From NCBI RefSeq assembly GCF_013315695.1, contig NZ_CP054353.1: a stretch of 64,000 nt of DNA. The stretch is one strand, 5' to 3'. Position numbers and translations under genes: made by a program. The number at the start of each line of letters is the position of its first letter. Position 1 is the stretch's first letter. The notes under the pieces were generated by a model that searched no databases, was not told the DNA's origin, and saw nothing but the letters and a program-made list of their open reading frames with translations. The stretch comes from Escherichia coli (lineage in GTDB: Bacteria > Pseudomonadota > Gammaproteobacteria > Enterobacterales > Enterobacteriaceae). Positions 3,176-10,994 of this stretch are shown here, piece by piece.

Positions 3176-5617
3176 TTAAAAATCAGCCTGACTCGGGATC
3201 AGTTTTTGCCAGATAGCTGAAACGTATTTTGCCTGGTAACGAGCGTCATCAAGTGCATTATGTCGCTCACCTTCGAATGGAATAGCCGTTCTGGCATCGA
3301 AGTCTATGGCTTTCCCCAGCTCAACGATTGTGCGTACATCGCGATCGTTGTAGTAACGCCACGGGCAGGGGATCCCCTGCCGTTCGTATGAACGGCGCAA
3401 AATCGTGTTGTCGAAGTTGGCTCCATTTCCCCAAACCTGAACAAAAAATTCACCGGAGTTTTCGTCGATAAATTCCCGCAATTGTAACAGTGCATCATCT
3501 AACGGGATTTCATCGGTCATAATGGCAGATTGCGCTTCGCGTGATTGCTTAAGCCACCATTTAATGGTGTCCCGATCAATGACTCCGCCAGCAGTTTCCA
3601 GATCGATAGTCTTACTAAATTCCGGTCCCATATCTCCGGTTTGCGGATCGAAAAATATTGCACCTATTGAGATGATCGGGGCATCAGGATTTTTTCCCAT
3701 GGTTTCAAGGTCGATCATTAGATGGTCACACGTCCTGCTGGTGGATGTGATTTCGTGATGACCGTTCACCTTAATTGAGTGATCTGCCGTCTCGCCAGTT
3801 TTATTATCGCTGGCGTGATGCTGATTGCCGCCAGGGTTCTCCTTGTGTGGATGTTCAGCGCCTTCCATTTCCTCCGGATCATTTTCCTGAACTTCAACCT
3901 GATTCTCTTCATCGAATGTTTCCTGGTATGTTGCGTCGCCCATCACCGCGCCACAATCAGGGCAGTTGCCGCCACCGCTCTGACCGCAGGCGGTGCAGAC
4001 TTTTTCCGGTTCCTGTTGCGCTACTGGTTCGGATTGTTTCGTTTCTGGCTCGTTTTGTAACGCATTTGGGCTGTTTTGTTCCGCTTTTTGGTCGTTCCGT
4101 TCCGATTCATGCTGGTTCTGGTTCACAGAATCGCGAGTCTGGATCCCCTTGACCCATTTCGGATCATTAGGGTCGCTAATCCCCTCAACAAATTCACCAC
4201 GCGATACAGCAAGTAACTTATCGGCGTCAGGCTGGCTGATATTGGCTGCCTGCATAATTTTGTTTGCTTCGTCAGCGGTGACTTTTACTTGGTTAGCGGA
4301 ACTCACCTGCGACTGAGCATCCAGCGACTGCGCGTTCTGGCCATGTTCAGTTGTATCCGGTTCCATTGTTTCAGTTGTTGCCTGTTCACCTGCCATTGCG
4401 TCAGATGGTTGTGGTTTTTCTTCTTCTGTTTCACGCTCAGTAACCACCTCGCGGTTAATTTCTTCCAGGATATCTTTTTCCGGCGTATGCCGGGCAGCTG
4501 TGAGAGTTTCCTTGCTGGGGTTCTCGTGATCAGTTTCCGTCAAATAGGCGTTGATATACCCCTGAAGGCGTCCCGGGTAGTGATAAAATTCAGGGTGTGC
4601 GCTTCGGATAAGTGCAAAAATAGCGGCGCGGGAATAGTCCAGAATACCCGGGGTTGCACGAAGTGCTGCGGACCATTCTTTGAACGGACTTTCTTTGTTC
4701 AGGACTACTTCTTTTGCGCGACGATAAACGCTGCCCGGAATTTCATAAATATTAAAATCCATCGGAAGTGTGGCTGCTGCAATCTCCACATCCAGTGTGT
4801 CGAGGGTGTGTACTAAATTCGGATTGCGATCGGTTTTGTTCCCACCGCCAGCATTAGCACCGGAAGCCGTGCGGGTGATGCGTGAAACACGATTTCCTTT
4901 CATCCACTCTTTTGTCAGCAGACCCCGATCAGTGTAGTCAGCGTCCAGGTATGCTTCGAAAAAAGCAGTTATTAGTCCCAGGTCTGAATTACCAGGATTA
5001 GGGAAAACTTTGTCAGTGTCACGAACCAGTTTGTGGAGGTCGCGAATCTCCAGCGAGTCGAGCAGACTGGTTTTATGCGAAATAGCCAGGGCAGTAACAG
5101 CCGGTAGTTCTTCAGCCCGTGCAATGTGTAATGCCTGGAGTTCGTCGCGTGAAACGTGCGTTACTGGTTTTTCGCTGCCGTGTTGAGCAAGCCAACGAAT
5201 GGGCAGTTCCTGACCGGAGACAGGCAGAAGCATGCTCTCCTCAATCTCAGTCATGTCTTCGCCGTTGATGTTGGTATTGTCAGTGCTGGCTGGTTTGTCC
5301 TGAACAGAGGGGGAAGGGCCGATAAATGTCATTGTGATGCCATCTTTCCCGCCTTTTTCATAGCGGTTGCAGAATTCAGTATCAAACACGCCTTCTGGCG
5401 GAAGGTCGTCAACAACGGGCAAATTGACGCGGACGGGTTTTTTAAAGTCGTCTTCATCATAATCGTTGTCATCCATTGCGGTAATGCAGCGGGAGATTGC
5501 AACAGATAATTTTTTTGCTGTAGCCCAGTAAAAACCACCTTTAATTCCCAGGCGTTTTCTTACTTTGTCATTTTTTGCTTCGCAATATAGTGCAAATTCT
5601 TCTTTATCAGTGCTCAT
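3176..5617 (-). CDS. Large early protein, 813 aa: RecE-like N-terminal region, acidic low-complexity linker with a CxxC..CxxC zinc ribbon, and a C-terminal DEDDh (DnaQ-like) 3'-5' exonuclease domain
   Basis: The N-terminal segment [60 protein letters not shown]... is near-identical to remembered Rac RecE. The C-terminus (MIDLETMG ... [12 protein letters not shown] ... [11 protein letters not shown]) carries the Exo I, II and III DEDDh motifs. Confidence 0.85.
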
Positions 5618-5710
5618 TATTGGTAAACCTCATCACAGATTTAAGGGTGAACAAATCTCTGCCATTGCTGACATATAAGAATGAAACTGGATATTTATTA
5701 CGGTGCTGTT

Positions 5711-5902
5711 TTAAAATCCTGCCGGGATTTCGTTATTATCCTGGTGAATAACTTTATCGACCGGATAACAGTTGCCTGGAATTTTCTGTTCGGTTGCTGC
5801 TGCCATACATTCCTGCATTGTTCTGTGAACACTGACTGCAATATCAACTGGCTCTCCGGAAACAAGAAAAACTGTCAGAACAAGCACAAATGCTGAATTC
5901 AT
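5711..5902 (-). CDS. ydfD: YdfD-like small membrane/lysis protein (DUF1482), 63 aa
   Basis: MNSAFVLVLTVFLVSGEPVDIAVSVHRTMQECMAAATEQKIPGNCYPVDKVIHQDNNEIPAGF matches remembered Qin YdfD. Its start overlaps the dicB stop (ATGA). Confidence 0.85.
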   Translation of the reverse strand: MNSAFVLVLTVFLVSGEPVDIAVSVHRTMQECMAAATEQKIPGNCYPVDKVIHQDNNEIPAGF

Positions 5903-6087
5903 TGTGCACATCCTTTTGGCATCAGACGTAAACGAGCCAGCATTGAAACAATGCATATTTTATTTAATAGCTCCCGTTCTTGTTTTCTCTTGTTAATGGC
6001 ATCTTCAGTAAATACTGGGTTACTGATAGTGACACCAATTTCAAAACAACCTTCAGACGTATTAACGTTTGGTAATAACGTTTTCAT
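5899..6087 (-). CDS. dicB: Cell-division inhibitor DicB, 62 aa
   Basis: MKTLLPNVNTSEGCFEIGVTISNPVFTEDAINKRKQERELLNKICIVSMLARLRLMPKGCAQ appears identical to K-12 DicB as I remember it. The start is the internal ATG of ORF 5899..6192. Confidence 0.92.
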   Translation of the reverse strand: MKTLLPNVNTSEGCFEIGVTISNPVFTEDAINKRKQERELLNKICIVSMLARLRLMPKGCAQ

Positions 6088-6256
6088 TATCGCGTCCTCA
6101 ACAATGAATTTTGTGATGCAGTGCCTGGTGCCTCCAGGTGACGTTAACCAGTTAACAATTAACGCCGGATACAGAGAATCCACCCATAACACTGTTTTTG
6201 GTTTTAACTGTTCCGCGTGCGCTCAGCCGCATTCACCACATCACAAAATTCACTTT

Positions 6257-6314
6257 AAAAAGGGCGGCAGAGCAGTCACGGAGTAAAACTGATACCGCCA
6301 AACGTCACCAGAAA
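6257..6314 (-). ncRNA. dicF: DicF small regulatory RNA (ftsZ-targeting antisense sRNA)
   Basis: The reverse complement reads TTTCTGGTGACGTTTGGCGGTATCAGTTTTACTCCGTGACTGCTCTGCCGCCCTTTTT, which is the DicF sequence including its terminator hairpin and U tract. It lies upstream of dicB, as in Qin. Confidence 0.92.
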
Positions 6315-6654
6315 ATTGATAACAGAGGGCGTTGCAGCGGGGTTGTCACTTAAGCGTATGGTCAACCTGACAACCCGGTGTCCTCAACGGGGAAGGAATA
6401 ACCCCGCCATACTTACCGCCGCGCCATTTCGCGGGTTGCCACAACCGGAAGCGCACGGTCGACGAAAATTTAACGACAGGCTATCTATGAACCAGCTACC
6501 TCGCCGTGCGCTTTCGCGTTATGGTCTGACTTTTCATGGAAATATCCTTTCAGTAAACTGTCAGTGCCGGATGCTCACCCGTGTCCGGCGCACGCACTCC
6601 ACCTCACCCGTGGAGAACTCCTTAATTACCAACCTTAGCTTCGTTGGTTAGCTA

Positions 6655-6873
6655 TTAACGCGGGTATGTAATCATTCTGGCAATGCTTAATGCCGCTGCT
6701 TTTTCCAGCCTGGTGATATCCTGCTCCAGAGAGAACAGATTTTCAGCCTGCTTAGCCCTGGCTTCATTAGCCCATTTCAGATCCTGCGCTGCATTAATTT
6801 TCTGGCGCATCCACTCATAAAGTTCATCATCGGTATAGTCTGGCGCGATGATGACAGGTTCTCGTTTCTGCAT
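6655..6873 (-). CDS. ydfC: YdfC-like protein, 72 aa
   Basis: MQKREPVIIAPDYTDDELYEWMRQKINAAQDLKWANEARAKQAENL... matches remembered Qin YdfC. An AAGGAG RBS lies upstream of the ATG at 6873. Confidence 0.85.
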   Translation of the reverse strand: MQKREPVIIAPDYTDDELYEWMRQKINAAQDLKWANEARAKQAENLFSLEQDITRLEKAAALSIARMITYPR

Positions 6874-6944
6874 GTCAGCTCCTTGTGGTTCGCATTGCCT
6901 GCTTTTAACCACGTCAGGCGAGGTGGTATCCTCTGAGGGGTCTG

Positions 6945-7301
6945 TTACTCGAGAGGAAATTGGTTATGAATACAATCAAGTTTTCTTGCCCAGAATGTGG
7001 TGGCGAAGTCTTTGACACATCCTTTAAGCCGCAGGGCTCTGACAGTTTCGCGGGAGCCATCTGCAAAAATTGTGGTCACCTTGTAACTGAAGATGAGTCC
7101 TCGCAGTTCGATGACGAAATCGTTGACAATATCTTCGGTGCACTCACCAGAGACTTTCTGAAATAAAGACGCATACCGCTTAGTTACCGCTCTGATAATT
7201 CTTACCTGTCCGGCAATGGCGCTGATATCAATATAAAGCGCCATCGCTGTTTCTTTGCTGATCCCTGGACGCCTTCCATTCTGATGTTTGACTTCGCCCA
7301 C
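6945..7301 (-). CDS. Alternative call: first ORF of the dicB-type operon (118 aa, GTG start), function unknown
   Basis: It is correctly placed downstream of the DicA-operator-controlled promoter, with an AGAGGA RBS. However, it is rich in rare AGA/AGG/GGA codons and fully contains the antisense zinc-ribbon ORF. Confidence 0.4.
   Translation of the reverse strand: MGEVKHQNGRRPGISKETAMALYIDISAIAGQVRIIRAVTKRYASLFQKVSGECTEDIVNDFVIELRGLIFSYKVTTIFADGSRETVRALRLKGCVKDFATTFWARKLDCIHNQFPLE
6966..7166 (+). CDS. Candidate 66-aa zinc-ribbon protein (CPECGG..24 aa..CKNCGH), antisense to the dicB operon
   Basis: A GAGGAA RBS lies 7 nt upstream of the ATG. The ORF has two CxxCG knuckles and mostly common E. 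coli codons. It is codon-for-codon antisense to ORF 6945..7301, so only one of the two is likely real. Confidence 0.5.
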   Translation: MNTIKFSCPECGGEVFDTSFKPQGSDSFAGAICKNCGHLVTEDESSQFDDEIVDNIFGALTRDFLK

Positions 7302-7382
7302 TGAGAAATCCTCTGTTTCCCCTTAACGCCGGGGTAGCGGAACTGTTTGCTGAGAACACCGTGCGGTGTCTTGATGGAGATT

Positions 7383-7438
7383 AATTTAGAATAACCTAAC
7401 AGATGTGGCAAGTGTTTTTTGTTAGATTGATCTAACAA
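7383..7438 (-). promoter_or_regulatory. dicB-operon promoter (TTGCCA-N17-TAAATT) with two DicA-type operators (TTAG-N6-CTAA)
   Basis: On the reverse strand the -35 lies at 7406-7411 and the -10 at 7383-7388. The palindromes are TTGTTAGATCAATCTAACAA (7419-7438) and TTAGGTTATTCTAA (7386-7399). Confidence 0.65.
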
Positions 7439-7473
7439 GAAGAGTGAGGGAATCTAAGTGTCTGAAAGGAGTG

Positions 7474-7881
7474 TTATTTTATTGATTTGTTTTTACGTGC
7501 TTTAAGCATTTCTTCGAAGAGTTTATTGAAATTCTCTACTCTTGCGCGCATTTCAGACAGCAAGGCTTCCTGCTCGGAGGATGGAAGAGCATCGAATAAT
7601 TCGATCAATTCTTTGTGGCTGGGAGTTAACTCGGTTTCCACATGAAGTTCTTGTGCTGGCACTGGTGCCTTGTCTTCGTCACCAAACATTAGCCATGTAG
7701 GCGAGCACTTCAGCGCATCAGCTAAAGCAAACAACCGCTTCCCGACTGGTTGGGTTTCGTCTCTTTCCCATTGTGAAATTGTGACGTGAGCTACCCCAGC
7801 GAGGCGAGCGGCTTCTCGTTGTGTTAGGCGTAATTCTTTTCGTCGTGCCAGAACTCGCTGGCCTAGGGTTCTTGTATCCAT
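7474..7881 (-). CDS. dicA: HTH repressor DicA (P22 C2-like immunity repressor), 135 aa
   Basis: The Xre-type HTH (LTQREAARLAGVAHVTISQWERDET) and the C-terminus (...MRARVENFNKLFEEMLKARK) align with remembered K-12 DicA along its whole length. Confidence 0.9.
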   Translation of the reverse strand: MDTRTLGQRVLARRKELRLTQREAARLAGVAHVTISQWERDETQPVGKRLFALADALKCSPTWLMFGDEDKAPVPAQELHVETELTPSHKELIELFDALPSSEQEALLSEMRARVENFNKLFEEMLKARKNKSIK

Positions 7882-7883
7882 AG

Positions 7884-7948
7884 TTAGGTAATTCTAATTT
7901 TTCTTGACTTAGGTATCCCGCGCACATTACTGTTAGAAATATCTAACA
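7884..7948. promoter_or_regulatory. dicA/dicC divergent control region: two more TTAG-N6-CTAA operators and a TTGACT -35 element
   Basis: Operators are TTAGGTAATTCTAA (7884-7897) and TGTTAGAAATATCTAACA (7931-7948). TTGACT lies at 7904-7909, upstream of dicC. Confidence 0.6.
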
Positions 7949-7961
7949 AGAGGGGGCTTTG

Positions 7962-8189
7962 ATGCTTAAAGTTGACGCAATTACTTTTTTTGGCAGCAAA
8001 ACAAAGCTTGCCAATGCCGCAGGAGTGAAACTGGCAAGTGTTGCTGCATGGGGTGAACTGGTTCCTGAAGGTCGCGCGATGCGCCTGCAAGAGGCATCCG
8101 GCGGGGAACTTCAGTACGACCCCAAAGTTTATGACGAATATCGTAAGGCAAAGCGGGCGGGGCGGTTGAACAATGAAAATCACCCCTGA
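7962..8189 (+). CDS. dicC: Cro-like regulator DicC, 75 aa
   Basis: MLKVDAITFFGSKTKLANAAGVKLASVAAWGELVPEGRAMRLQEASGGELQYDPKVYDEYRKAKRAGRLNNENHP closely matches remembered DicC. Confidence 0.9.
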   Translation: MLKVDAITFFGSKTKLANAAGVKLASVAAWGELVPEGRAMRLQEASGGELQYDPKVYDEYRKAKRAGRLNNENHP

Positions 8190-8724
8190 ACAGGTTTGTG
8201 AGGCTCTGGATGCCTGGGTATGTCGACCAGGAATGACACAGGAGCAAGCGACGATATTAATCACGGAAGCATTCTGGGCTCTGAAAGAACGCCCGAACAT
8301 CGATGTTCAACGCGTCACGTTTAATGATGGCGAGGTTGATCAACGGGCGCTGGGCGTTAACCGAGTGAAGATATTCGAACGCTGGAAAGCTATCGACACC
8401 AGGGATAAGCGGAAAAAATTCACGGCGCTGATTCCGGCAATTATGGAGGCTATCCGAATTAGTGATTTCAGGTTGTATCGTGAGATCAGTGATGGAAAAA
8501 GCATTACGTACATGATCGCCGGATTAAACAAAGAATATGGCGATGTGGTGGAGTCCGGGCTGCTTTTTGCGGATCCAGCTGTTGTGGAACGTGAGACTGA
8601 CGAGCTTATAGAAAAAGCTATTGCTTTCAAGCATGCGTATCGTCAGCAATATCAATATTACTTTGCAGATAAACAAATGTCTGCCAGGGGTTTGTATGAG
8701 TATCGATGCACTACGATGGGCTAA
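8173..8724 (+). CDS. YdaT-domain protein (CII-position regulator), 183 aa
   Basis: It sits right after the cro-like gene. The segment IFERWKAIDTRDKRKKFTALIPAIMEAI parallels Rac YdaT (IYHRWLKGETKTQREKIQKLIPAILAIL). Confidence 0.65.
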   Translation: MKITPEQVCEALDAWVCRPGMTQEQATILITEAFWALKERPNIDVQRVTFNDGEVDQRALGVNRVKIFERWKAIDTRDKRKKFTALIPAIMEAIRISDFRLYREISDGKSITYMIAGLNKEYGDVVESGLLFADPAVVERETDELIEKAIAFKHAYRQQYQYYFADKQMSARGLYEYRCTTMG

Positions 8725-9736
8725 AAAGGTGAAAACCGGCAGTTCATCCAGTAAGTCTGTATTGACCTGGCTTGCTGATATGTGCGGTGCCGATTTGTGT
8801 GCATACCCGTCTGTATCTGCACTGGCAGAAGTAACGGAACTAAACAAAAAGACTGTGCAGGACAGCTTACGACACCTGATGGAGATTGGGTTAATTGTTG
8901 ATACCGGTGAGAGAAAAGGCAGAACAAAGCAAATTGTGGTGTACCGACTTATCGGTGTAGAAGAAAGTGTTGCCGAGCCTGAATACACCCAAAAACGGGA
9001 GTCTTTAAAGGTGGGTAAAATTGGTGCTGTTAATAAAAACAGTACCGAAAATGGTTATGTTTCAGCACAAAACAGACCCAAAAACGGAACTCTTAGCTGC
9101 ATGGAAAATAACCAAAGACACCCAAATTTTCCATCAAAGACACCCAAAAACGGATCACGGAACCCAAAGGAACCCAAAGATCTAAACCCCACACATAACG
9201 CACGCGAGAGTGCTCCGACCAGTGAGCAGGAAGTTTTGTCGTTACAGGCAGCACCCCTTGTATTCCTGGATGGCCTGAGCGAACCCATCGGAAAATTTCC
9301 GATGACCGATAGCTGGTATCCGTCACGGGATTTTCGACGACGGGCTGCGTTGTGGGGGATGGCTTTGCCGGAGACAGAATTTACACCTGCTGAACTTGCC
9401 GCCTTCCGGGACTACTGGGCAGCGGAGGGGAAAGTGTTTACGCAGATTCAGTGGGAGCAGAAATTCGCCCGTCACGTAAATCACGTCAGGGCGCAGGTTA
9501 AACCAGTCAGCAAGGGGGTAAACCATGCAGCAGCACCAGGTGGCACCGCATCACGGGCAGTTCAGGAAATTCGGGCAGCACGTGAGCAGTGGGAACGTGA
9601 AAACGGATTTATCAGCGACGGAAACGGTCTGGAAGCTGTGGGAACTCATGGGGGAGGTTTATTCGAACCGCTGGACCCAGAAGAACGGGGCCGCACCTTC
9701 GAAGCTCTGGATTGCACAGATTGGCGCGATGACTGA
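8696..9736 (+). CDS. Replication initiator (O-like): N-terminal winged HTH, C-terminal DnaT-like domain
   Basis: MSIDALRWAKKVKTGSSSSKSVLTWLADMCG... is typical of phage replication-protein N-termini. The position upstream of the P-like gene fits. The start was chosen at the internal ATG 8696. Confidence 0.7.
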   Translation: MSIDALRWAKKVKTGSSSSKSVLTWLADMCGADLCAYPSVSALAEVTELNKKTVQDSLRHLMEIGLIVDTGERKGRTKQIVVYRLIGVEESVAEPEYTQKRESLKVGKIGAVNKNSTENGYVSAQNRPKNGTLSCMENNQRHPNFPSKTPKNGSRNPKEPKDLNPTHNARESAPTSEQEVLSLQAAPLVFLDGLSEPIGKFPMTDSWYPSRDFRRRAALWGMALPETEFTPAELAAFRDYWAAEGKVFTQIQWEQKFARHVNHVRAQVKPVSKGVNHAAAPGGTASRAVQEIRAAREQWERENGFISDGNGLEAVGTHGGGLFEPLDPEERGRTFEALDCTDWRDD

Positions 9737-10190
9737 GCAGCAAATCCGACAGGTCTGCCGCCAGTGCATGGACCGCTGCCGGGCGGGTGAAACATGGCCT
9801 CCGGACCTGGCTGAGTTTGTGGCGCTGATTTCAGAAAGCGGGGCCAATCCATTTGGCCTGACGGTGGATGCTGTGATGGAGGAGTACCGCCGCTGGCGTG
9901 ATGAGTCCTGGCGATATGACGGAAGCGACAAATATCCGTGGCCTCAGCCTGTGCTGTACCACATCTGCCTCGAAATGCGTACCAGAGGGATTGAGCGCCA
10001 GATGACGCAGGGTGAGTTAAAACGACTTGCGGAACGGCAACTGACGAAATGGGCAAAGCATGTTGGTAACGGGATGAGTGTTCCGCCAGTGCGACGACAA
10101 CTGGAAGGGGCGAAACACCCGCAAGGGCCAACGCCAATTGAACGGCTGAAACAGGAATACGAACGCCGGAAGGCAGCTGGTTTTATTTGA
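9525..10190 (+). CDS. Replication protein P-like (DnaB helicase loader); start uncertain (GTG 9597 or ATG 9648 are also possible)
   Basis: It aligns with lambda P (..WPPDLAEFVALI.., ..YPWPQPVLYHICLEMR..). The N-terminus overlaps the 3' end of the O-like gene in another frame. Confidence 0.75.
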   Translation: MQQHQVAPHHGQFRKFGQHVSSGNVKTDLSATETVWKLWELMGEVYSNRWTQKNGAAPSKLWIAQIGAMTEQQIRQVCRQCMDRCRAGETWPPDLAEFVALISESGANPFGLTVDAVMEEYRRWRDESWRYDGSDKYPWPQPVLYHICLEMRTRGIERQMTQGELKRLAERQLTKWAKHVGNGMSVPPVRRQLEGAKHPQGPTPIERLKQEYERRKAAGFI

Positions 10191-10223: not shown

Positions 10224-10994
10224 ATGGAAACCGTATTTGACGCACTGAAAGCAATGGGAAAAGCCACATCGGTAGAACTGGCCGCGCGACTTGATATCAG
10301 TCGTGAAGAGGTTCTCAACGAGCTGTGGGAACTCAAAAGAAAAGGCGTCGTTGATAAAACTGGTCACACCTGGTTTCTGGCTGGCGAAGGTGAATCCCGG
10401 GTAACCGAAGAGCGGCCAGTAAAATCTGAAGCACAGGATATGCTGACCGGGGAGGTCGAACAAAAAGTTACCGCAGACATGATGATTGAGTTTATCGGTC
10501 AGGATGGGGCTAAAACGTGTGAGGAACTGGCGGGTAAGTTCGGTGTCAGTACTCGCAAGGTTGCTTCCACGCTGGCGGTGGTAACCGCAACGGGGCGGCT
10601 GGCACGCGTTAATCAGAACGGTAAATTTCGTTACTGCATGCCGGGCGATAATTTACCAGCAGAGCCGAAAGCCGCGCTGGTAACGGAAAGTGATGGTAAG
10701 GCCTTTCCTCAGCCAGCAGGTGCTGCGTTACCAGTCCGGGAAGCCGCAACACAGGAAGAAATTAAAACAGAAACTGTGGCGGACATTGTGCAGCCGTTGC
10801 CATCGTTTACCGAAACGCAAGCAGATGAGCTGATTTTTCCGTCCCTTCGCAGGGCAAACCTGGCGCTGCGCAGGGCGAAAAGTGATGTTCAGAAGTGGGA
10901 GCGAGTCTGCGCCGCGCTGCGGGAGCTGAACAAGCACCGGGATATTGTTCGACAGATTACTGATTCTTCCCGCCGTGTTGTATCGGAAAAGTGA
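10224..10994 (+). CDS. Hypothetical protein with two winged-helix-like segments (DUF1627-like), 256 aa
   Basis: A GGAGGAA RBS precedes ATG 10224. The motif pairs [29 protein letters not shown] and [28 protein letters not shown] suggest winged-helix domains. The family name is recalled, not verified. Confidence 0.5.

What the first reader, a model, noticed from the sequence alone, without database searches (positions are those of the whole stretch)
6945..7301. Two mutually antisense, codon-aligned ORFs at the head of the dicB-type operon, one of them a zinc-ribbon protein
A DicA-operator-controlled promoter lies at 7383-7411. Downstream of it, the reverse strand carries a 118-codon ORF (GTG 7301, AGAGGA RBS). 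The forward strand, in exact codon register, carries a 66-aa ORF (6966-7166, GAGGAA RBS) with two CxxCG knuckles: SCPECGGEV...ICKNCGHLV. That motif is very unlikely to arise by chance in a shadow frame. The forward ORF uses common codons, while the reverse ORF is rich in AGA/AGG/GGA. If the zinc-ribbon gene is real, it is transcribed head-on into the dicF-dicB operon and could modulate it by transcriptional interference. If the reverse ORF is real, it replaces ydfA/ydfB of Qin with an unrelated protein.
Basis: seen in the sequence. Interest (0 to 1): 0.5.

Follow-up and report, generated by a model that had tools for sequence, protein, structure and literature searches.

The report
Two real genes on opposite strands
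The same 200 bases of a prophage control region appear to encode two different conserved proteins, one on each DNA strand; this is one of the better-supported bacterial cases of a debated kind of gene overlap, though neither protein's function is known.

Summary
The forward ORF 6966-7166 ("Z", 66 aa, CPEC…CKNCG) and the reverse ORF ending at 6945 ("A") are antisense in exact codon register. Z lies wholly inside A.

Both appear to be real genes. Z matches NCBIfam NF047912. A matches phrog_21318. The two catalogued families are reverse complements of one locus. All ~130 related loci keep the arrangement, from E. coli, Citrobacter, Klebsiella, Enterobacter, Serratia and metagenomes, including a 37%-GC relative.

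- **Evidence for A:** its 26 non-overlapping N-terminal codons show coding selection only in the A frame (dN/dS 0.30). It keeps a ribosome-binding site and ATG in non-E. coli lineages. It is intact in every fetched locus. Its predicted fold has pLDDT 75.
- **Weaker point:** Z's own fourfold sites (62%) are less clearly constrained.

A most likely starts at ATG 7244 (99 aa), not GTG 7301. The cassette replaces ydfA-ydfB of Qin, downstream of a promoter with a published transcription start. Mutually exclusive expression through convergent transcription is inferred, not shown. Neither protein's function is known.

The parts
6966..7166 (+). [not shown]
   Evidence: NCBIfam NF047912 at 57.3 bits against a cut-off of 37. 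PGAP annotates it as WP_001092153.1 in identical genomes. Homologues down to 32% identity keep all four Cys. The A codons opposite the Cys are always ACA or GCA.
6945..7244 (-). Gene A: a 99-aa basic protein (pI 8.9). It is the first gene of the dicB-type early operon, and codons 28-93 are antisense to Z in exact register.
   Evidence: phrog_21318, E 9e-66. PGAP annotates it as a hypothetical protein in EDL933, RS09595. The family has 39 hits down to 35% identity. The ORF is intact in every fetched locus. AlphaFold2 pLDDT is 75.
7167..7244 (-). The A-only part: the 26 N-terminal codons of A that lie outside Z. Leu27 (TTA, 7164-7166) is the complement of Z's stop codon.
   Evidence: NG86 dN/dS is 0.30 in the A frame (dS 1.49), against 0.45-1.0 in the other five frames. 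Fitch changes at codon positions 1/2/3 are 66/52/111.
7245..7301 (-). Optional in-frame extension of A from GTG 7301 (AGAGGA ribosome-binding site). It is probably not part of the conserved protein.
   Evidence: A 1-nt deletion in EDL933-type copies puts it out of frame. Other genera start within a few codons of the position aligned to 7244, with their own ribosome-binding sites.
6952..6957 (+). Ribosome-binding site of Z (AGAGGA, 8 nt before the ATG). It is also the 3' arm of a conserved hairpin.
   Evidence: Read from the sequence. AAGGA/GGAGG sits at the same place in all lineages.
6897..6957 (.). Conserved ~60-nt element between the edge of the cassette and Z's start. It contains GCCTG/CAGGC, ACCAC/GTGGT, an extended -10-like TGGTATCCT (6924-6932), and the hairpin TCCTCT (6929-6934)/AGAGGA (6952-6957). 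A's stop codon lies in the hairpin loop.
   Evidence: It is more conserved than the coding DNA across clades. The hairpin stem occurs in four compensated versions. 37 nt are 100% identical in two phages that lack A/Z and 97% in a third. It is absent from K-12 Qin. Its function is unresolved.
7383..7411 (-). dicB-type (pL-like) promoter TTGCCA-17-TAAATT. The inferred transcription start is near 7376.
   Evidence: Promoter scan. The Cappable-seq start 1848930(-) in EDL933, seen in all 9 conditions, maps 7 nt after the -10 hexamer (PMC10469882).
7386..7441 (.). Palindromes of the DicA-operator type (TGTTAGAT..ATCTAACA) that flank and overlap the promoter.
   Evidence: Inverted repeats I1 and I2. 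Binding was not tested.
7474..7881 (-). DicA-type repressor gene, immediately upstream and on the same strand as A.
   Evidence: NF007257 at 224 bits against a cut-off of 101.
6655..6873 (-). ydfC, the next gene of the operon after the cassette.
   Evidence: PGAP annotation. phrog_1744.
6262..6313 (-). DicF sRNA further down the operon.
   Evidence: Rfam RF00039 at 76.7 bits against a gathering score of 48.

Best explanation
A ~420-bp cassette (about 6890-7308) encodes two proteins from the same DNA, one on each strand.

**Gene A** (minus strand, ATG 7244 to stop 6945, 99 aa, basic) is predicted to fold as three helices, a beta-hairpin and a helix. It is the first gene transcribed from the repressor-controlled early promoter.

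**Gene Z** (plus strand, 6966-7166, 66 aa, acidic, four-Cys zinc ribbon) lies wholly inside A, antisense and in exact codon register. It has its own ribosome-binding site and a conserved upstream element.

**Shown here.**
- Both reading frames are maintained by selection across the whole known family.
- The cassette moves as a unit. In every locus where neighbouring genes were read, A points the same way as the phage early operon. It follows the repressor gene in most loci and follows cro in two.

**Inferred.**
- The two transcription units converge and their mRNAs are fully complementary. Their expression is therefore likely to be mutually antagonistic, through polymerase collision and degradation of the RNA duplex.
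- Z's head-on transcription would also damp read-through into ydfC-dicF-dicB.

**Unknown.** The biochemical roles of A and Z. A small acidic zinc ribbon suggests a protein- or nucleic-acid-binding modulator.

For: **Co-occurrence.** Every locus fetched with an A or Z query carries both as antisense ORFs in register. These come from E. coli, Citrobacter, Klebsiella, Enterobacter, Serratia and metagenomes. The most distant A relative, P0060 from a 37%-GC contig, also has an embedded CPQC…CSNCG ORF. Its stop codon is again opposite a Leu codon of A at the corresponding place.

**A is coding.**
- In the 26 codons outside the overlap, dN/dS is 0.30 in the A frame only. Third-position changes are in excess: 66/52/111.
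- A ribosome-binding site plus ATG is conserved in all non-E. coli lineages examined.
- Z's fourfold sites are 62% identical, against 42% for the neutral proxy.
- A's Arg72 is invariant through CGG, CGA, CGT, AGA and AGG, while the opposite Z residue toggles between P, S and T.
- The AlphaFold2 model has pLDDT 75 and includes the overlap-encoded part.
- A transcription start for A's promoter is published for EDL933.

- All four Cys are invariant. The opposite A codons are always ACA or GCA, and they change only at A's first position, never at its third.
- A's fourfold sites are 81% identical in the overlap.
- Z-frame identity is 0.58, against a null of 0.27.
- In L131, A uses TTA for 3 of 5 Leu outside the overlap and for 0 of 10 inside it.
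- Z stays intact in L127 and L128, where A's N-terminus is lost or degraded.

**Cassette and orientation.** The alignment with K-12 Qin gives the junctions. Searches show A co-directional with the early operon in both early-left and early-right contexts.
Against: - There is no direct evidence here that either protein is made. No ribosome-profiling or proteomic data for either ORF turned up in the two papers' supplements that I searched.
- Constraint on A inside the overlap is weaker than on Z. The confidence intervals for fourfold-site identity only just separate: 0.52-0.71 against 0.30-0.54.
- My OLGenie-style ratios were omega_A 0.45 and omega_Z 0.25. Each is only modestly below its own null: 0.52 ± 0.02 and 0.32 ± 0.01. 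That test is therefore weak in this register.
- The register frame is the one most tolerant of shadow ORFs.
- A uses rare codons such as AGA and GGA.
- The neutral proxy is only 26 codons long.
- Z's model has low confidence (pLDDT 55).
- No start site for Z's strand was found in the truncated EDL933 supplement.
- The mutual-exclusion mechanism rests on geometry alone.
Confidence: 0.65

Rival explanations
1. [not shown]
For: - Z-frame constraint is the stronger of the two.
- The register frame is the most permissive for shadow ORFs. The chance per lineage that A stays open is 0.04-0.31, which is not negligible.
- A is rich in rare codons.
- omega_A is barely below its null.
Against: - The 26 codons of A that lie outside Z show coding selection only in A's frame.
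- Those codons are preceded by a conserved ribosome-binding site and ATG in the non-E. coli lineages.
- A is open in every fetched locus, including the AT-rich L131. P = 3.6e-5 on a conservative count.
- Z's synonymous sites are partly frozen.
- A's Arg, Phe and Asp residues are invariant while the opposite Z residue varies.
- The predicted fold is reasonably confident.
Confidence: 0.15
2. A is translated, but only the act of translation or its N-terminal part matters, for example to shield the early transcript from Rho or to couple to ydfC. Selection keeps the frame open without caring about the C-terminal sequence.
For: - Constraint on A is weaker in the overlap than constraint on Z.
- The K-12 counterpart of this leader carries small ORFs (ydfA, ydfB) at the same place.
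- In my recollection, not re-read here, Rho-dependent polarity has been described for that operon's leader.
Against: - A-frame identity in the overlap (0.50) exceeds that of A's own N-terminus (0.41).
- Invariant A residues are maintained through synonymous codon switches.
- The beta-hairpin and C-terminal helix of the model are encoded in the overlap, with pLDDT 74-86 across the blocks covering residues 51-90.
Confidence: 0.12
3. Only A is a functional gene. The zinc-ribbon ORF is a by-product of A's sequence.
For: - Phage GenBank records and PHROGs annotate only A.
Against: - The four Cys codons require A's third positions to be A, and they never vary.
- A's fourfold sites are 81% identical in the overlap, against 42% outside it.
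- TTA is avoided specifically inside the overlap in L131.
- Z has a conserved ribosome-binding site and upstream element.
- Z survives in L127 and L128 where A is damaged.
Confidence: 0.03

Closest known systems
Antisense overlapping genes reported in E. coli O157:H7 and Pseudomonas (nog1, laoB, ano, pop, and the long P. aeruginosa pairs; e.g. PMC5960689, PMC9927249, PMC8850804; review PMC7457138)
   Same: A protein-coding ORF lies embedded antisense in another protein-coding gene. The case for it rests on conservation and expression signals.
   Different: - As I recall them, those cases are mostly young, lineage-restricted ORFs inside old, well-known 'mother' genes, supported mainly by expression data.
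- Here both partners are of unknown function, and no family member was found without the other.
- The overlap covers 100% of the shorter gene in exact codon register.
- The support is comparative: several genera and a 37%-GC relative.
- The pair appears in the literature only as a line in a bulk BLAST table (Table S12 of 10.1101/2020.11.18.388249).
ydfA-ydfB at the head of the dicBF operon of the Qin prophage, E. coli K-12
   Same: Same position: between the DicA-controlled promoter and leader and ydfC-dicF-dicB. The leader is nearly identical up to about window 7310.
   Different: - The sequences are unrelated. A has no DUF1391 or other Pfam match.
- Qin has two small same-strand ORFs and no antisense gene.
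- Qin also lacks the conserved 60-nt element.
Face-to-face promoter switches and antisense control in temperate phages (coliphage 186 pR/pL, P22 sar-ant, lambda oop-cII); from general knowledge
   Same: Convergent transcription units sit at the immunity region. Activity of one strand can then suppress the other by polymerase collision or RNA pairing.
   Different: - In those systems the overlapped segment is short or the antisense partner is non-coding.
- Here the whole overlap is coding on both strands.
- Interference has not been measured here.
Small phage zinc-ribbon proteins such as the Lar restriction-alleviation family (TIGR03655, phrog_6422)
   Same: A prophage early-region protein of about 60 aa with two CxxC knuckles.

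Membership tests
NCBIfam NF047912, ECs_2282 family putative zinc-binding protein (gene Z) | HMM score above the curated cut-off of 37 bits | tested here: met
   57.3 bits, E 1e-15, covering profile positions 1-56 of 60. Identical genomes carry this PGAP name.
NCBIfam NF047912 (gene Z) | Two CxxC pairs able to bind zinc | tested here: inconclusive
   All four Cys are invariant in every relative. Metal binding cannot be tested here, and the model is poor (pLDDT 55).
PHROG phrog_21318 (gene A) | Full-length profile match | tested here: met
   E 9.1e-66 over positions 1-99 of 99. Distant members P0042 and P0050 also match. The family has no assigned function.
Antisense overlapping protein-coding gene pair | Both ORFs intact and co-conserved across divergent relatives | tested here: met
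   All loci, all clades. There are two Z knock-out lineages, and a few degraded copies among the protein hits and in L127/L128.
Antisense overlapping protein-coding gene pair | Purifying selection attributable to each frame separately | tested here: met
   - Z frame: strong (A fourfold sites 81% identical; Cys codons fixed).
- A frame: clear outside the overlap (dN/dS 0.30).
- A frame inside the overlap: moderate (Z fourfold sites 62% against 42%; frame stays open, P = 3.6e-5).
-.
- The ratio test alone is weak.
Antisense overlapping protein-coding gene pair | Transcription of both strands | tested here: inconclusive
   [not shown]
Antisense overlapping protein-coding gene pair | Translation of both products | not testable with these tools
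   No ribosome-profiling or proteomic record for either ORF was found. The Sakai data filed under 'ECs2282' refer to a different ORF of the old annotation.
Qin-type dicB operon (DicA/DicC immunity, ydfC, DicF, DicB) | DicA and DicC regulators, DicF RNA and dicB in the canonical order | tested here: met
   NF007257 at 224 bits. NF007282 at 166.7 bits. RF00039 at 76.7 bits. dicB and ydfC annotated in the identical genome.
Lar restriction-alleviation family (TIGR03655) | HMM score above the cut-off of 39.6 bits | tested here: not met
   15.7 bits.

The most novel reading that the evidence does not exclude
A and Z are an obligate pair, made from complementary strands and partly shaped by the genetic code. 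The acidic zinc ribbon Z and the basic protein A would act on each other or on the same target, as a lysogeny-versus-lytic toggle at the head of the early operon. Convergent transcription would make the two states mutually exclusive. On this reading the pair is an ancient, co-evolved dual-coding switch rather than two genes that merely share DNA. The adjacent conserved element would be its control site.
Probability: 0.2. Interest if true: 0.85.

Novelty: new variant of a known kind. Interest (0 to 1): 0.68.

Why it matters
**For the debate on antisense genes.** Whether bacteria and phages really encode functional proteins on both strands of the same DNA is disputed. Most proposed cases rest on expression data for young ORFs. 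Here both frames are preserved in every known family member, across genera and base compositions, which gives a clean comparative test case.

**For experiments.**
- A's start codon lies outside Z, so A can be knocked out without touching Z.
- Natural Z knock-outs already exist.
- In some lineages Z's start codon lies beyond A's stop codon.

**For annotation.** Two curated families, NF047912 and phrog_21318, are reverse complements of one locus. Pipelines report one or the other but never both.

**For phage biology.** The pair sits at the first position of the repressor-controlled early operon, upstream of dicF and dicB. It is therefore a candidate regulator of prophage induction or of the toxic division inhibitors.

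Tried and rejected
- **OLGenie-style ratios.** dNN/dSN and dNN/dNS looked significant. A null built by randomising synonymous codons of the other frame gave ratios almost as low. I therefore treat this test as weak and rely on fourfold sites, frame openness and the non-overlapping part of A.
- **PDB sequence searches.** Nothing for either protein.
- **PADLOC.** Nothing for A, and only a 16.5-bit hit to candidate PDC-M14A for Z.
- **Pfam.** Only sub-threshold zinc-ribbon families for Z and nothing for A.
- **A as an N-type antiterminator.** I considered this because of its position. It lacks an arginine-rich motif and is predicted to be folded, so I rejected it as unsupported.
- **Conserved upstream element.** RNAalifold on a MAFFT alignment gave no usable consensus. 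The hairpins were checked sequence by sequence instead. Rfam has no match in 4500-9000 other than DicF and a sub-threshold STnc100 hit.
- **Literature.** A search for ECs2282 or ECs_2282 in main texts gave nothing. Supplements gave only a bulk BLAST line, plus data for a different ORF that once carried the same locus tag.

Full report
**What is there**

The window carries a Qin-like prophage control region. On the minus strand, in order:
- a DicA-type repressor gene (7881-7474);
- a sigma-70-type promoter, TTGCCA-17-TAAATT (7411-7383), flanked by TGTTAGAT/ATCTAACA palindromes;
- about 500 bases further on, ydfC (6873-6655), DicF (6313-6262), dicB, a DUF1482 gene and a large exonuclease gene.

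DicC lies on the plus strand at 7959-8189. The finding concerns the stretch between the promoter and ydfC.

- The plus-strand ORF 6966-7166 (here "Z") encodes a 66-aa acidic protein with CPEC and CKNCG knuckles. AGAGGA lies 8 nt before the ATG.
- The minus-strand ORF runs from GTG 7301 to a stop at 6945-6947 (here "A").
- The two are antisense codon for codon, and Z lies entirely inside A.

**Each ORF is already a catalogued family**

- A matches phrog_21318 over its full length (E 9e-66).
- These two families are therefore reverse complements of one locus. I found no statement of that in the literature I could search.
- The only trace is a line in a bulk BLAST table, where an embedded antisense ORF of EDL933 hits ECs_2282.
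- 'ECs2282' in older Sakai data sets is a different ORF in the leader. The tag was reused on re-annotation.

**The pair is conserved as a pair**

- Protein searches found Z homologues at 45-70% identity and A homologues down to 35%.
- I fetched about 130 loci from genomes, viral contigs and metagenomes.
- Every locus with an A-type ORF has a Z-type ORF on the opposite strand in the same register. Z's stop codon is always opposite a Leu codon of A (Leu27 in the window numbering), and all four Cys are present.
- This includes Serratia and the deepest metagenomic branches.
- It also holds for the most distant relative found by an exhaustive profile search (P0060, E 4.5e-5), on a 37%-GC contig.
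- In that contig A uses TTA for 3 of 5 Leu codons outside the overlap and for 0 of 10 inside it. TTA inside the overlap would put a stop codon in Z.
- The A family is small: 8 representatives at 50% identity among 1.84 billion proteins.

**Is A a gene?**

- The first 26 codons of the 99-aa form lie outside Z. There, dN/dS is 0.30 in the A frame (dS 1.49), against 0.45-1.0 in the other five frames.
- Parsimony changes at codon positions 1/2/3 in that stretch are 66/52/111.
- Every non-E. coli lineage has a good ribosome-binding site and an ATG a few codons upstream of the conserved TL.VD.SA motif.
- In E. coli the homologous start is ATG 7244, preceded by only a weak ribosome-binding site.
- The GTG at 7301 has a better ribosome-binding site. 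However, a 1-nt deletion throws it out of frame in EDL933-type copies, so it is not the conserved start.
- A's frame is open in all fetched loci. A few frameshifted or truncated A copies do occur among the protein hits (for example P0059).
- Z's fourfold sites are 62% identical (CI 0.52-0.71). The fourfold sites of A's non-overlapping part, used as a neutral proxy, are 42% identical (CI 0.30-0.54).
- A's Arg72 is invariant while its codon moves through CGG, CGA, CGT, AGA and AGG. The opposite Z residue toggles between Pro, Ser and Thr.
- Phe80, Phe84, Asp62 and Arg69 behave in a similar way.
- AlphaFold2 with only 19 sequences gives pLDDT 75 for a helix-helix-helix-hairpin-helix fold. Its hairpin and last helix are encoded in the overlap.

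**Is Z a gene?**

- The four Cys codons require the opposite A codons to be ACA or GCA. They always are.
- Those A codons change nine times at A's first position (Ala/Thr, silent in Z) and never at A's third position.
- A's fourfold sites in the overlap are 81% identical, against 42% outside it.
- Z-frame identity is 0.58, against 0.27 expected if only A were selected.
- Z keeps a ribosome-binding site at a fixed distance, preceded by a strongly conserved element.
- In two remnant loci A's N-terminus is lost or degraded while Z stays intact.
- The reverse also occurs. Z carries E14->stop in 18 of the 80 E. coli-type viral-collection loci, and E44->stop in one. The E14 change also turns A's otherwise invariant Phe80 into Leu.

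**Caveats**

- My OLGenie-style ratios (omega_A 0.45, omega_Z 0.25) are not strong evidence in this register. A null that randomises the other frame's synonymous codons already gives 0.52 ± 0.02 and 0.32 ± 0.01.
- Constraint on A inside the overlap is real but weaker than constraint on Z.
- The neutral proxy is short.
- Nothing here shows that either protein is made.
- Z's structural model is poor (pLDDT 55).

**Context and likely mode of action**

- The alignment with K-12 Qin shows an almost identical promoter and leader down to about window 7310. After that, ydfA-ydfB in K-12 are replaced here by the A/Z cassette and a 60-nt element, until ydfC resumes.
- Published Cappable-seq data place a start site for the A gene of EDL933 at 1848930(-) in all nine conditions. 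After allowing for three 1-nt indels, that is 7 nt downstream of the TAAATT hexamer, or about window 7376.
- In other genera A is the first gene after an S24-type cI repressor on the same strand. In two loci it follows cro in the early-right operon.
- A therefore always runs with the early operon, and Z always runs against it.
- From this geometry I infer that the two units interfere with each other and that Z's transcription opposes read-through into ydfC-dicF-dicB. This inference is untested.
- No function can be assigned. PDB, BFVD, Pfam and PADLOC gave nothing usable.

**The adjacent element**

- Window 6897-6957 is more conserved across clades than the coding DNA itself.
- It holds GCCTG/CAGGC and ACCAC/GTGGT repeats, which could form a pseudoknot, and an extended -10-like TGGTATCCT.
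- It also holds a hairpin whose 3' arm overlaps Z's ribosome-binding site. The stem of that hairpin exists in four mutually compensated versions.
- Thirty-seven bases of the element are 100% identical in two phages that lack A/Z and 97% identical in a third. It is absent from K-12 Qin.
- It could be Z's promoter or operator. It could instead be an RNA element of the early-left transcript. I could not decide between these.

**Verdict**

This is a deeply conserved, fully embedded antisense gene pair in codon register at the head of a prophage early operon. The two halves are catalogued separately and have not, as far as I could find, been recognised as one locus. I put confidence at about 0.65 that both strands encode functional proteins, and about 0.35 for the interference mechanism.

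Noticed in passing
window 6897-6957; also L129 (phage HannyBb) 2501-2537: A ~60-nt element is conserved more strongly than the genes around it. It has two overlapping inverted repeats, an extended -10-like TGGTATCCT, and a hairpin whose stem occurs in four compensated versions. 37 nt are 100% identical in phages HannyBb and mEp460_ev081 and 97% identical in Salmonella phage MS2 LVA, none of which carries A/Z. It is absent from K-12 Qin. It is either a promoter/operator or an RNA element of early-left transcripts.
   Followed up: partly
L031-L053 subset (18 of the 80 E. coli-type viral-collection loci) and L014; EDL933 locus L126: One E. coli (EHEC-type) lineage carries GAA->TAA at Z codon 14, which also changes A's otherwise invariant Phe80 to Leu. 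L014 carries E44->stop. In these genomes PGAP annotates A instead of Z.
   Followed up: partly
L089-L107, and proteins P0033 and P0036: Enterobacter-type A proteins have a ~35-aa N-terminal extension with a CxxC of their own (…NKCKSCGYVE… / …ECPHCGFIE…). Citrobacter-type A (L004-L006) is fused in frame to a 78-aa upstream segment, giving 174 aa.
   Followed up: no
L125 (Sakai NC_002695.2) 9954-10154, compared with the old annotation: The locus tag ECs2282 originally named a different 54-aa ORF in the operon leader (equivalent to window ~7392-7228). It was reused for the zinc-ribbon gene on re-annotation. Published RNA-seq and Ribo-seq values listed under 'ECs2282' (PMC5597208 supplement) therefore do not refer to Z.
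   Followed up: yes
window 6055-6264 (-): A sub-threshold Rfam match to STnc100 (34.4 bits against a gathering score of 47) lies directly downstream of DicF, between dicF and dicB.
   Followed up: no
window 7218-7242 (+): The hairpin GGCGCT…AGCGCC is followed by a T-rich tail about 50 nt after Z's stop codon, inside A's first codons. It may be a weak terminator for Z. The terminator scan did not flag it, and I did not check it in other lineages.
   Followed up: no
L001 (strain 1436, identical to the window) 1226-2275 and 10371-10793: The integrase is frameshifted and a DUF977 gene has an internal stop. The prophage carrying this window is therefore probably defective. It lies next to tRNA-Ser and mtfA.
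   Followed up: no
[not shown]
   Followed up: partly
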